Below are positions 19,577 to 64,000 of a stretch of DNA of 64,000 nucleotides, piece by piece. Under the pieces are notes generated by a model. That model did no database searches, was not told the DNA's origin, and saw nothing but the letters and a program-made list of their open reading frames with translations. Position 1 is the first letter of the stretch. Every line of letters starts with the position of its first letter. Origin of the DNA: the human T2T-CHM13v2.0 reference genome, Homo sapiens; assembly GCF_009914755.1 (NCBI RefSeq), contig NC_060939.1; one strand, given 5' to 3'. Position numbers and translations under genes: made by a program.

Positions 19577-19812
19577 GTGCTGGAAAAGAGAAGCACAGGA
19601 TGCTTTGAGAACATATACCGGGGAGACGTGCCAGATATAGTAGGGGATGGGAAGGGCCGCTCCCTTGAGCTGAGAGACTGTTGGGCAAGGGAGGGGCACA
19701 GAGGAGAGGGCAGGATTCAAATCAGAAGTAACAGCAGAGGGAGGATCTAGAAGCCAGAAGAAACAGACAGCGGCCTCTGGAGAAACTGGAGAAATGGTTA
19801 GAGAGTGTGAGA

Positions 19813-20402
19813 TTAGCCCAAATACTAAACATAAAATAAAAGTACCATATCCCTTAGCATCCATCCTTTTCAAAAAATAAAAATAAAAAAAAATCAAACT
19901 CTAAAAATCCACCTAACCAAATTAGTCCTAAAAACCCAATTACCCTAAACTAAATGCTTCCCCACTGCCTTATTAAAAATCAAAACTGCCCCTCAAAAAT
20001 ATTAGTTTATCCCCTTATAAAATACTATATGAACTGCCTTATTTACATTGTACTACTAATGTCCCTACATTTAAAACCAAACATCAGTTCCTCAAAACCT
20101 ATAGTCTACTTTCTTTTCTCTTAAAACAAAGTATCCTAACACAAACACTACCCCTAAAGCTCCCAGCACATCAACACCAACCTAAAAATCACATCCTCGT
20201 CAAAAAATTTATAAAAAACCCTCAAACCAGCTTAAAAAAAAAAAACCTTATGAATACTCCTAACTACTAAAACTACAATCCAAACAACAACAAAAAAGTA
20301 AACTCACCACACCTAAGTCAAAAAACCACCACCATCACCTTCAAAATTATAAGCCATTATTCCAAAGTCAAGCCCTACCAAATTAAAACAAAAAAATCTT
20401 AA
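19813..20402 (+). pseudogene. HERV-I/HERVIP10-like pol (integrase C-terminal half), G-to-A hypermutated
   Basis: Translates [66 protein letters not shown]. This matches the gammaretroviral integrase pattern WEYHxPWHPxSSG..NQTLK..LPWTK.LP.ALLRIRTAP..GLSPYEMLYG with W>stop, E>K, R>K, G>S/E and M>I changes. Confidence 0.88.
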
Positions 20403-20903
20403 TTCTTAATTCTTTTATACCTTTTATATCGTCTCTCCCTCTTTCCTCACTCTATTACTAATTCACTATTAATATAACTGAATCTAACTCACCCCAAACC
20501 ATTATTCTTAATACTTATCTTTTATACCTTATAAAAATTTAAAAAAACAAAAACAACCAACTTCTTCAAATAAATATCTCTACCCTATTCCTCTAGTTTC
20601 TACAATTAACCCTAGTTCTCACCATTATAATCATCTACAACCAAAACACCGTTCCTTTACTCCCACAGCCTAACAACCTTATAATAATTAAAACTACATC
20701 CTTTAAACCACCCCATACCAAAGTTAAACCTCTACAAAAAAGTTTACATCAATCTAAAGCCCCTCCTCCATTTTACCAAAAAACCCACTCTCCCTAATTG
20801 CCAATCTCACCAATACAAACCTATCCTTATTTCTATTACTACCTCTACCTCCGCTGACCCTAAGCCTGCCCCCAGTCACTTCTATAGTATAAAAGCCAAT
20901 GTC
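20403..20903 (+). pseudogene. HERV-I-like env 5' portion, hypermutated and 3'-deleted
   Basis: Follows the pol end; same G depletion; ATTAATATAACTGAATCTAACTCACCCCAAACCATT (INxTxSxSPQTI-like) and TATAGTATAAAAGCCAATGTC (edited YGMGADV-like). Confidence 0.65.
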
Positions 20904-21091
20904 AGTTGAAAATGAAACGCAAAAACAAGTCATATTAAAAATAAAAACTTCTACTCTCCTTTGTTCTAAATACTCTCATAACAACCAGCCGTACAAAAAA
21001 CACCCGTCTATGCAAAAATAAATTTATTTTAATAAAAATCCTTTATCTAAATACTCATTTTTCCTTAAAACTCTAAGCCTTATTTCTAACA
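20904..21091 (+). mobile_element. LTR10-like 3' LTR, distal (R-U5) part only
   Basis: ATAAAAACTTCTACTCTCCTTTGTTC, an AATAAA signal and the ...CTTATTTCTAACA terminal CA; G depletion stops exactly here. Confidence 0.75.
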
Positions 21092-21496
21092 GACAGCAAA
21101 GGGTGGGTACCTGAGATACAGCAATAGAGACAGGTGGAAGACGACCCAGGTTCCCTGGGCTTCACATCGGAGCGAAGGGAAGCGCCGAAAGCATTAGGCA
21201 GGGAGTTACATGAACAGACACAGGTCTTCAAGGACCATGCTGGTCCCAACTAGGAAATATGATTTGAGTGAGCACTTCCATTCCAGCTACCAGTCCTTTA
21301 TCAAGTATGGACGTTGCAAATACTTTCTCTCAGTCTGCAGCTTGCCTTTTCATTCTCTCAGCTGTGTCTTTTAAAAGCAGAAGTTTTCAATTTTGATGAA
21401 GTCCAGTTTACCAATTGTTTTCTTTTCATGGATCATGCTTTTGGTGTTTTATCTAAAAACTCATCACCAAATGCAAGGTCAAGAAGATTTTCTCCT

Positions 21497-61070: not shown

Positions 61071-64000
61071 TTGTGTGTGTGTGGTCTGTGTGTTTTTTAT
61101 ATATATATAAACATATATAAACATATATATAATATAAACCTATGTTTATATATAAACATAATATAAACCTACGTGTTTATATATAAACATATATATAATA
61201 TAAACCTACATGTTTATATATAAACATATATATAATATAAACCTACATGTTTATATATAAACATATATAATATAAACCTACATGTTTATATATAAACATA
61301 TATAATATAAACCTATATGTTTATATATAAACATATATAATATAAACCTATATGTTTATATATAAACATATATAATATAAACCTATATGTTTATATATAA
61401 ACATATATAATATAAACCTATATGTTTATATATAAACATATATAATATAAACCTATATGTTTATATATAAACATATATAATATAAACCTATATGTTTATA
61501 TATAAACATATATAATATAAACCTATATGTTTATATATAAACATATAATATAAACCTATATGTTTATATATAAACATATATAATATAAACCTATATGTTT
61601 ATATATAAACATATATAATATAAACCTATATGTTTATATATAAACATATAATATAAACATATTTATAATATAAACATATGTAATATAAACATATGTTCTA
61701 TATATAAACATATAATATAAACATGTCTATATGTAAACATATATAACATAAACATGTCTATATATAAACATATATATAATATAAACATGTCTATATATAA
61801 ACATAAAATATAAACATGTCTACATATAAACATATATAATATAAACATGTCTACATGTAAACATATATATAATATAAACATGTCTACATGTAAACATATA
61901 ATACGAACATATGTCTACATATAAACATAAACATGTCTATATATAAACATATATATAATATAAACATATGTCTATATATAAACATATATAATATAAACAT
62001 AAACATATAATATAAACATATATAATATAAACATATGTTTATATATAAACATATATAATATAAACATATATTTATATATAAACATATATATGAACATGTT
62101 TATATATAAACATATACAATATAAACATGTTTATATATAAACATATACAATATAAACATGTTTATATATAAACATATACAATATAAACATGTTTATATAT
62201 AAACATATACAATATAAACATGTTTATATATAAACATACAATATAAACATGTTTATATATAAACATACAATATAAACATGTTTATATATAAACATACAAT
62301 ATAAACATGTTTATATATAAACATACAATATAAACATGTTTATATATAAACATACAATATAAACATGTTTATATATAAACATACAATATAAACATGTTTA
62401 TATATAAACATACAATATAAACATGTTTATATATAAACATACAATATAAACATGTTTATATATAAACATACAATATAAACATGTTTATATATAAACATAT
62501 AGAATATAAACATGTTTATATATAAACATATAGAATATAAACATGTTTATATATAAACATATATAAACATGTTTATATATAAACATATATAAACATGTTT
62601 ATATATAAACATGTATAAAATAAACATGTTTATATATAAACATATATAATATAAACATGTTTATATATAAACATATAATATAAACATGTTTATATATAAA
62701 CATAATATAAACATGTTTATACATATATAAACATATAAAAACATGTTTATACATAATATATAAACATGTTTATATTATAATACAAACATGTTTATATATA
62801 ACCATGTTTATATTATATGTTTATATATAACCATGTTCATATTATATGTTTATATATAACCATAGGTTTATATATGTTTATATATAACCATAGGTTTATA
62901 TATGTTTATATATAACCATAGGTTTATATATGTTTATATATAACCATAGGTTTATATATGTTTATATATAACCATAGGTTTATATATGTTTATATATAAC
63001 CATAGGTTTATATATGTTTATATATAACCATAGGTTTATATATGTTTATATATAACCATAGGTTTATATATGTTTATATATAAACATAGGTTTATATATG
63101 TTTATATATAAACATAGGTTTATATATGTTTATATATAAACATATAGGTTTATATATTTATATATAAACATATAGGTTTATATATTTATATATAAACAGG
63201 TTTATAGGTTTATATATTTATATATAAACATAGGTTTATAGGTTTATATATTTATATATAAACAGGTTTATAGGTTTATATATTTATATATAAACATAGG
63301 TTTATAGGTTTATATATTTATATATAAACATAGGTTTATAGGTTTATATATTTATATATAAACAGGTTTATAGGTTTATTTATATATAAACATAGGTTTA
63401 TAGGTTTATATATTTATATATAAACATAGGTTTATAGGTTTATATATTTATATATAAACATAGGTTTATGTTTATATATTTATATATAAACCTATAGGTT
63501 TATATATAAATATATAATCATAGGTTTATATATAAACATATAAAATAAACATATGTTTATATATAAACATATATATAAAATAAACATAAACATATATAAA
63601 ATAAACATAAACATATATAAAATAAACATGTTTATATATAAATATATATAAAATAAACATGTTTATATATAAATATATATAAATGTATATGTTTATATAT
63701 AAAATATATATAAAATAAACATGTTTATATATAAACATATGCTTGTATATAAACATATATGTAAAATAAACATGTTTATATATAAACATATATAAAATAA
63801 ACATATACGTTTATAATAAACGTATATATAAAATAAACATGTTTATATGTAAATGTATATAATATAAACATATATAAACATATATGTTTATACATCCAAA
63901 CATATATAAGCATATATGTTTATACATCCAAACATATATAAACATATATGTTTATATAGCCAAACTTATATAAACATATGTTTATATATCCAAACATATA
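61071..64000. repeat. AT-rich minisatellite/VNTR with 28-35-bp variant units, running off the window end
   Basis: 35-mer AAACATATATAATATAAACCTATATGTTTATATAT, then 29-mer AAACATACAATATAAACATGTTTATATAT, then 28-mer AACCATAGGTTTATATATGTTTATATAT. Confidence 0.97.

What the first reader, a model, noticed from the sequence alone, without database searches (positions are those of the whole stretch)
19813..21091. Fossil of antiviral editing: extremely G-to-A hypermutated HERV-I-like provirus
Seen: about 55 G in about 1,280 nt (about 4%), zero GG and only about 6 GA (all in TGA). Nearly all surviving Gs are GC or GT, and the depletion starts and stops sharply at the element ends while the flanks are G-rich. 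The ORF track misses it, but conceptual translation gives an integrase with Trp codons converted to TAA/TAG (19837, 19855, 19946) and E>K, R>K/Q, G>S/E and M>I changes, each reachable by G>A. Established: APOBEC3 deaminases edit minus-strand cDNA, giving plus-strand GG>AG (A3G) and GA>AA (A3F/D/H-type) changes. Inference: loss of both GG and GA, extending through the LTR U5, records near-saturating editing by one or more ancestral primate APOBEC3s. It preserves their target preference and shows that a lethally edited genome still reached the germ line.
Basis: partly seen in the sequence, partly recalled or inferred. Interest (0 to 1): 0.9.

Follow-up and report, generated by a model that had tools for sequence, protein, structure and literature searches.

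The report
Hyper-edited fossil retrovirus fragment
A 1.3-kb piece of an ancient retrovirus in a GABRG3 intron has had about three quarters of its G bases turned into A on one strand only, the mark of the host's antiviral DNA-editing enzymes; the kind of fossil is well known, but this one is unusually thoroughly edited.

Summary
Window 19813-21091 has 54 G in 1279 nt (4.2%; window 20%). It has no GG and 6 GA, all of them in TGA.

It is a fragment, not a provirus: integrase C-terminal part, envelope N-terminal part, then the last ~197 nt of an LTR. It belongs to an old gamma-like ERV family with a proline-tRNA primer site, most likely HERV-IP.

Against 24 natural paralogues, a median 75% of their G sites read A here. 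The reverse change is 4%, and C>T and T>C are 20-21%. The paralogues themselves hold 9.5-17.6% G.

Editing starts at the first homologous base and stops at the LTR's terminal CA. GG and GA sites are ~90% edited. GC and GT sites are also ~60% edited, and the LTR is hit as hard as the body.

Best reading: APOBEC3-type deamination of minus-strand cDNA before germ-line integration (confidence 0.88).

This is a new, extreme member of a known kind. Interest 0.4.

The parts
19813..21091 (+). Whole hyper-edited ERV fragment; the viral plus strand is the window's + strand
   Evidence: Composition. Homology to 40 other genomic places. G>A against paralogues.
19813..20420 (+). Remnant of the C-terminal part of a gamma-type integrase (end coordinate approximate). 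It includes the stretch homologous to the MLV integrase C-terminal domain, at about 20180-20330.
   Evidence: Translations of the element and of L002. Pfam MLVIN_C on L002 nt 1865-2014, inside the homologous part. The element itself gives 0 Pfam families in 3 frames. Homology starts at 19813.
20400..20899 (+). Remnant of the N-terminal part of the envelope (surface subunit); start coordinate approximate
   Evidence: Alignment to the chr11 provirus up to its position ~10697. Translation.
20895..20900 (+). Junction of an internal deletion of ~1.75 kb (rest of env plus the 5' part of the LTR), lying on a 5-6 nt microhomology shared by env and the LTR's CCAAT-box region
   Evidence: Alignments to the chr11 env and to solo LTRs L031 and L030.
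20895..21091 (+). Last ~197 nt of the LTR (end of U3, R, U5), ending on the terminal CA
   Evidence: Alignments to solo LTRs L031 and L030 and to the chr11 3' LTR, all ending at the same terminus.
19578..19812 (.). 5' flank: G-rich and single-copy in the genome; no editing
21092..21285 (.). 3' flank: single-copy and G-rich. A common interspersed repeat starts at about 21288.

Best explanation
This is a dead fragment of an old gamma-like endogenous retrovirus. The family uses a proline-tRNA primer site and is most likely HERV-IP.

While its minus-strand cDNA was single-stranded during reverse transcription, host AID/APOBEC-type cytidine deaminases converted C to U almost to saturation. The likeliest agents are several APOBEC3 paralogues of an ancestral anthropoid primate. 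Copying of that strand fixed the changes as G-to-A on the viral plus strand, and the edited DNA was then joined to germ-line DNA.

Shown: the strand-specific G>A excess, its context bias, and its exact coincidence with the element's ends. Inferred: the enzyme family, the timing before integration, and the age of roughly 20-40 million years. The fragment has no function today.
For: - **Strand specificity.** Against 24 natural paralogues, the median fraction of paralogue G read as A here is 0.75 (range 0.72-0.83). The controls are A>G 0.04, C>T 0.20 and T>C 0.21. Against the closest paralogue L002: 122/159 versus C>T 33/287, Fisher p 1e-44.
- **LTR tail.** Against a closer relative, L031 (92.7% identical at non-G sites): G>A 31/40, A>G 3/52, C>T 3/42, T>C 2/56.
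- **Context.** GA 0.89, GG 0.90, GC 0.57, GT 0.65 (medians). GR 71/77 versus GY 51/82 for L002, p 9e-6.
- **Outlier in its family.** The other 24 copies show 0.22-0.49 by the same measure.
- **Boundaries.** Homology and G depletion both begin at 19813 and end at the LTR's terminal CA at 21091. The flanks are G-rich.
- **Retroviral identity.** The paralogue carries RNase_H, Integrase_H2C2, MLVIN_C and TLV_coat.
- **Literature.** Strand-biased GG and GA editing of human ERVs, and hypermutated copies, are described (passages read).
Against: - GC and GT sites are edited at about 60%. In hypermutated HIV-1 these contexts are disfavoured (passage).
- The LTR is edited as much as the body (78% against 77%), and there is no gradient (65-89% per 200-nt bin for L002). 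The HIV-1 single-strand-time model predicts a lightly edited LTR.
- These points argue for saturation, several enzymes or an unusually long single-stranded state, rather than against deamination.
- No enzyme can be named from sequence alone.
- The closest body paralogue is only 86% identical at non-G sites. G>A is therefore only 47% of all mismatches there.
- No primate orthologue or second human assembly could be examined.
Confidence: 0.88

Rival explanations
1. The deamination was done by a non-APOBEC3 member of the family (AID or APOBEC1), or mainly by one enzyme of relaxed specificity, rather than by the GG- and GA-preferring APOBEC3s.
For: GC and GT sites are edited at 57-65% (medians). 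Against the close LTR relative, GC is 8/10 and GT 4/7. Reviews give APOBEC3DE a GC context or a GA/GT context, so even within APOBEC3 the contexts vary.
Against: GG and GA are still preferred (p 9e-6), as reported for primate ERVs. At saturation, secondary contexts are expected to fill in. That AID or APOBEC1 are packaged into such virions is not supported by anything read here.
Confidence: 0.06
2. The G-to-A changes came from reverse-transcriptase misincorporation under a skewed dNTP pool. This is the pre-APOBEC explanation of hypermutation, recalled and not read here.
For: It would also be strand-specific and confined to the element.
Against: About 77% of all G sites changed, 153/199, in all four contexts and uniformly along 1.28 kb. 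I know of no report of misincorporation at that level in vivo (recalled).
Confidence: 0.03
3. A strand-asymmetric mutation process acted after integration (transcription-linked or kataegis-like), or there is an error in the assembly.
For: The element lies in sense orientation in a long GABRG3 intron (hub annotation). No reads or second assembly were available.
Against: The change stops within a base or two of both ends of the retroviral homology. The flanks are G-rich and unedited. No other long non-repetitive stretch of the 64 kb is G-poor without being C-poor.
Confidence: 0.02
4. The family or its source element is itself this G-poor.
For: The family is A-rich and G-poor for a human sequence: L002 is 32% A and 17.6% G over 4085 nt. 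Vargiu et al. report over 31% A for HERVIP.
Against: The 30 matched segments hold 9.5-17.6% G against 4.2% here. No second copy resembles the element: the best hit is 73% identical.
Confidence: 0.01

Closest known systems
Ultra-edited ERVs of Knisbacher and Levanon 2016 (PMC4866542; section 'Ultra-Edited Elements' read, other passages)
   Same: Clustered, strand-specific G>A relative to an unedited relative. GG and GA are preferred in primates. The paper reports 44 such elements in human, and up to 234 edited sites in primates and rodents.
   Different: Here about 153 G>A fall in about 1250 aligned nt, roughly 12 per 100 nt. Their record is 392 in 4304 bp, about 9 per 100, a ratio I computed. 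All four dinucleotide contexts are hit. G>A is the majority of mismatches only against the close LTR relative, not against the distant body paralogue (47%). Their supplementary lists could not be read, so I cannot say whether this locus is among the 44.
APOBEC3G-hypermutated HERV-K(HML-2) proviruses (Esnault et al. 2008, PMC2531183, passages read; Lee et al. 2008 recalled, not read)
   Same: Germ-line proviruses with a strand-specific G>A excess and no clear gradient along the sequence.
   Different: Those two proviruses have over 70% of their G>A in the GG context and are full-length class II elements. This is a class I fragment with GG and GA both ~90% edited and GC and GT ~60%.
G-to-A hypermutated HIV-1 genomes (Suspene et al. 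2006, PMC1635257, abstract and passages read)
   Same: Editing of minus-strand cDNA. The same product/substrate measure, (AA+AG)/(GA+GG), applies.
   Different: The ratio here is 62 against 2.25 in the paralogue, 27.5-fold. In that paper's figure legend, the group of three sequences with the highest ratio is set off at a maximum above 2. There is no gradient here, and the LTR is as edited as the body. HIV-1 shows gradients, and that paper's model predicts a lightly edited LTR.
HERV-IP (Repbase HERVIP10F/FH with LTR10F, as tabulated by Vargiu et al. 2016, PMC4724089, passages read)
   Same: - Gamma-like pol and env.
- Proline-type primer site in paralogues.
- A-rich: 32% in L002.
- Old LTR pairs: 80% identity in the chr11 provirus, against 10-19% divergence reported.
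- The env is 68% identical to an intact 674-codon env frame on chr14. I take that frame to be envP(b)/ERVPb1 from a recalled location; the paper groups that env with HERVIP env.
   Different: No curated consensus was available, so membership is indirect. The element itself lacks the primer site and most of the LTR.

Membership tests
APOBEC-hypermutated (ultra-edited) endogenous retrovirus | G>A far exceeds C>T and A>G on the viral plus strand | tested here: met
   L002: 122/159 against 33/287 and 9/310. The same holds for all 24 paralogues. LTR: 31/40 against 3/42 and 3/52.
APOBEC-hypermutated (ultra-edited) endogenous retrovirus | At least 25 G>A, and G>A the majority of mismatches to an unedited relative (criterion read) | tested here: inconclusive
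   The count is met: 122 in the body and 31 in the LTR. The share is 47% against L002 and 37-38% against L006 and L004, because the family is old. Against the close LTR relative L031, G>A (31) far outnumbers the counted transitions (A>G 3, C>T 3, T>C 2).
APOBEC-hypermutated (ultra-edited) endogenous retrovirus | Dinucleotide preference GG and/or GA, as in primates | tested here: met
   GR 71/77 against GY 51/82, p 9e-6. GY editing is nevertheless unusually high.
APOBEC-hypermutated (ultra-edited) endogenous retrovirus | Editing confined to the retroelement, hence before integration | tested here: met
   Depletion and homology share both ends.
HERV-IP (HERVIP10F/FH, LTR10-type LTR) | Best match to the curated Dfam/Repbase consensus of internal part and LTR | not testable with these tools
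   No repeat library was on hand. Vargiu's locus table is an .xls file that cannot be read here.
HERV-IP (HERVIP10F/FH, LTR10-type LTR) | Gamma-like pol and env | tested here: met
   Tested on the paralogue only: RNase_H, Integrase_H2C2, MLVIN_C, TLV_coat. The element itself gives no Pfam match.
HERV-IP (HERVIP10F/FH, LTR10-type LTR) | Proline-type primer binding site | tested here: met
   Tested on paralogues only. In 11 leader loci, 2 carry the exact nine-mer TGGGGGCTC that the ZNF506 paper gives for PBS-Pro. Seven more carry a degenerate version of it. One has a different site and one lacks the site. That paper lists HERVIP10FH among the PBS-Pro subfamilies. Other PBS-Pro families are not excluded.
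HERV-IP (HERVIP10F/FH, LTR10-type LTR) | A content above 31% and LTR divergence 10-19% (Vargiu et al.) | tested here: inconclusive
   L002 is 32.2% A. The chr11 LTR pair is 80% identical over 451 nt, just outside the reported range.

The most novel reading that the evidence does not exclude
The fragment may be a captured abortive reverse-transcription intermediate, not the remnant of a full provirus that later lost its 5' part.

A minus-strand cDNA that stopped inside integrase would, read in plus sense, be 5'-truncated yet keep an intact U5 end. If it stayed single-stranded over its whole length, that would explain the uniform editing of about 77% in all four contexts, LTR included. It would then have been joined to germ-line DNA by integrase at the U5 end only, with host end-joining at the other.

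If true, this would be a germ-line record that APOBEC-stalled intermediates can still be inserted.
Probability: 0.12. Interest if true: 0.6.

Novelty: new member of a known kind. Interest (0 to 1): 0.4.

Why it matters
It is a clean, easily checked example of how far antiviral DNA editing can go in a copy that still became part of the human germ line. About three of every four G bases are gone, and every tryptophan codon checked has become a stop.

The integrase and envelope coding is no longer recognisable to protein-family models. Elements edited this heavily in old families can therefore slip through screens that need high identity to a consensus or a source copy, so published counts of edited ERVs may be underestimates. 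The authors of one such screen say as much (passage on the unmasked scope of editing).

The equal editing of the LTR and of GC and GT sites is a small puzzle for models built on HIV-1.

Tried and rejected
- **Paralogous empty site.** Both immediate flanks are single-copy, so no target-site duplication or pre-insertion state could be read. The last four bases before the element and the first four after it agree at 3 of 4 positions. That is about a 5% chance event (my arithmetic), and I draw nothing from it.
- **'All six GA are in TGA' as an enzyme signature.** Rejected. In L002 context, TGA sites were edited 15 of 17 times. The four of the six that align to paralogues have mixed origins: paralogues read mostly G at 20031, T at 20252, A at 20480, and both G and A at 20856. 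The coincidence stays unexplained.
- **Closer source element.** A search with the closest solo LTR found only a small subfamily, and the query LTR's nearest copy is 88% identical to it. It gave no better body relative than L002.
- **Editing gradient.** None found.
- **Pfam on the element itself.** Nothing in three frames.
- **Papers and supplements.** Anwar et al. 2013 is not held. Knisbacher's supplements could not be searched: the call covered only 307 characters. Vargiu's locus table is unreadable.
- **Primer-site identity.** I did not test it against tRNA genes directly. It rests on a nine-mer printed in a paper and on recall.

Full report
**Observation**

Window 19813-21091 (1279 nt) holds 54 G (4.2%), against 20.0% for the window. 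It has no GG, 6 GA (all in TGA), 22 GC and 26 GT. Blocks of 10 nt just outside both ends hold 2-6 G; those inside hold 0-1. GC skew falls to between -0.5 and -0.9 across the stretch and returns to about 0 on both sides. The binomial probability is 6e-61 at the window's G frequency. No other long non-repetitive stretch of the window is G-poor without being C-poor.

**What the sequence is**

A search of the window's own genome gave 40 other places.
- The best is on contig C11 (locus L002): 73% identical over element positions 1-1088.
- Positions 1115-1279 match other places at 79-82%.

L002 lies in a provirus of about 8.1 kb whose two LTRs are 80% identical over 451 nt. Read with X at stops, L002 gives Pfam RNase_H, Integrase_H2C2, MLVIN_C and TLV_coat. 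The MLVIN_C match lies inside the part homologous to the element. The element itself gives no Pfam family in its three forward frames.

Side-by-side translation shows that the element covers the C-terminal part of integrase and the N-terminal part of the envelope surface subunit. At about 20895-20900 the env sequence is joined to the CCAAT-box region of the LTR, over a 5-6 nt microhomology. This removes about 1.75 kb. The last ~197 nt are LTR. They end on the same terminal CA as two solo LTRs (L030, L031) and the chr11 3' LTR.

At the 5' end, homology begins at 19813, in mid-integrase. The paralogues' upstream sequence is replaced by unrelated, G-rich, single-copy DNA. The 3' flank is also single-copy for about 190 nt. 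So this is a 5'-truncated, internally deleted fragment, not a provirus.

**Family**

I examined 11 paralogous leader loci for the primer site that follows the LTR end.
- 2 carry the exact nine-mer TGGGGGCTC, which the ZNF506 paper gives as the conserved start of proline-type primer sites (passage).
- 7 more carry a degenerate version of it.
- 1 has a different site, which I recall as isoleucine-type.
- 1 (the chr11 provirus itself) has lost that part.

The ZNF506 paper lists HERVIP10FH among PBS-Pro subfamilies. Vargiu et al. describe HERVIP as having more than 31% A and LTR divergence of 10-19%, about 30-40 million years old. They group the ERVPB1 envelope with HERVIP env (passages).

L002 is 32% A. 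Its env transmembrane region matches 150 places. One is an uninterrupted 674-codon frame on C14 at 68% identity. I take that frame to be envP(b)/ERVPb1, from a recalled chromosomal location.

It was not tested against a curated consensus, and other proline-primed families are not excluded.

**The editing**

Medians over the 24 paralogues:

| Change (paralogue base to element base) | Median fraction | Range |
|---|---|---|
| G>A | 0.75 | 0.72-0.83 |
| A>G | 0.04 | 0.03-0.05 |
| C>T | 0.20 | 0.11-0.23 |
| T>C | 0.21 | 0.10-0.29 |

Two closest relatives:

| Comparison | G>A | A>G | C>T | T>C |
|---|---|---|---|---|
| Body vs L002 | 122/159 | 9/310 | 33/287 | 43/304 |
| LTR tail vs L031 (92.7% identical at non-G sites) | 31/40 | 3/52 | 3/42 | 2/56 |

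For L002, G>A against C>T gives Fisher p 1e-44. Together, about 153 of 199 G sites (77%) are changed, roughly 12 changes per 100 aligned nt.

The matched paralogue segments hold 9.5-17.6% G, so the family is not intrinsically this G-poor. By the same measure the other copies score 0.22-0.49. The element is a clear outlier.

The ratio (AA+AG)/(GA+GG) is 62 in the body, against 2.25 in L002.

**Context and distribution**

G>A fraction by the paralogue's 3' neighbour:

| Context | Median over 24 paralogues | LTR vs L031 |
|---|---|---|
| GA | 0.89 | 9/10 |
| GG | 0.90 | 10/13 |
| GC | 0.57 | 8/10 |
| GT | 0.65 | 4/7 |

For L002, GR is 71/77 against GY 51/82 (p 9e-6). The 5' neighbour matters little (0.74-0.80). 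For L002, editing is 65-89% in each 200-nt bin except the short last one (8/13), with no gradient.

Two features therefore depart from the HIV-1 picture. GC and GT sites are more than half edited, and the LTR is as edited as the body. Suspene et al. report GC and AC as disfavoured, and their model predicts a lightly edited LTR (passages). Esnault et al. likewise saw no clear gradient in the two hypermutated HERV-K proviruses.

**Mechanism**

The best explanation is deamination of minus-strand cDNA by APOBEC3-type enzymes before integration, close to saturation.
- Shown: strand specificity, context bias, and confinement to the element.
- Inferred: the enzyme family and the involvement of several paralogues. 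Reviews assign CC to A3G, TC to A3F and A3B, and GC or GA/GT to A3DE.

Because editing happens in the infected cell, and the integrase protein arrives ready-made in the virion, a genetically dead cDNA can still be inserted (established knowledge).

The exact CA terminus at 21091 fits integrase processing of the U5 end. In nine of the eleven leader loci examined, 2-4 further bases lie between the LTR's CA and the primer site, and they are absent here.

How the 5' end arose cannot be decided here. It may be a later genomic deletion, or the capture of a truncated cDNA.

**Age (inference only)**

- The LTR tail differs from L031 at 7.3% of non-G sites.
- At most 6 GA stand among about 273 sites that would read GA after an A>G change.
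- Both figures fit a few tens of millions of years, in line with the 30-40 million years given for HERVIP.

**Rivals**

- An intrinsically G-poor family is excluded.
- Mutation after integration, or an assembly error, is made unlikely by the exact match of the boundaries. It was not tested on reads or other genomes.
- Misincorporation under a skewed dNTP pool, or AID/APOBEC1, cannot be excluded from sequence alone. Both are less likely.

**What is known**

- Strand-biased GG and GA editing of human ERVs, and hypermutated copies, are described by Ito et al. (passages).
- Knisbacher and Levanon define ultra-edited elements and count 44 in human (section read).
- Esnault et al. describe two A3G-hypermutated HERV-K proviruses (passages).

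I could not read the supplementary locus lists. I therefore cannot say whether this locus has been listed, and I made no claim-of-absence search beyond.

**Verdict**

The finding is real and correctly interpreted in its core. It is a new and extreme member of a known kind, not a new phenomenon. Interest 0.4.

Noticed in passing
window 61098-64000: AT-rich minisatellite of about 2.8 kb, with units of about 29-35 nt and 82-90% matches. It explains the masked blocks at 61-64 kb and the low G and C there.
   Followed up: partly
L025 (G000:C17:47927143-47929599), match at about 956-1472: Another copy of the family with only 9.5% G. Its median G>A against the other copies is 0.49, where most score 0.22-0.42. 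It may be a second, less heavily edited copy.
   Followed up: partly
G000:C14:86854860-86855477 (- strand): An env-like frame of 674 codons without stops, 68% identical to the env transmembrane region of the chr11 provirus. Probably the known intact envP(b)/ERVPb1 gene; the identification is recalled, not tested.
   Followed up: no
L042 (G000:C16:77879861-77883287): One copy of the family carries a different primer binding site after the LTR end, isoleucine-type by recall. Nine others carry the proline type. This may be why the family name combines I and P.
   Followed up: no
24 paralogous copies (loci L002-L028): Even the ordinary copies show more G>A (0.22-0.42 of G sites) than C>T (about 0.2) against each other. 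This is a mild family-wide strand bias. The copies were found with the A-rich query, which may bias the figure.
   Followed up: partly
window 20031, 20252, 20480, 20856, 20908, 20914: All six surviving GA dinucleotides are preceded by T, although TAA makes up only about a quarter of the NAA sites. Their origins are mixed, and TGA sites were not generally spared (15/17 edited). Unexplained; the numbers are small.
   Followed up: yes
window 21018-21023: The element has AATAAA in the LTR tail where the solo LTRs L031 and L030 have AGTAAA. The element lies in sense orientation in a GABRG3 intron. There is no evidence that this site is used.
   Followed up: no
L009/L032 (G000:C11, about 106227497-106227920): The 5' LTR of the closest paralogous provirus lacks its U5 end and primer site. 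Its LTR pair is only 80% identical.
   Followed up: partly
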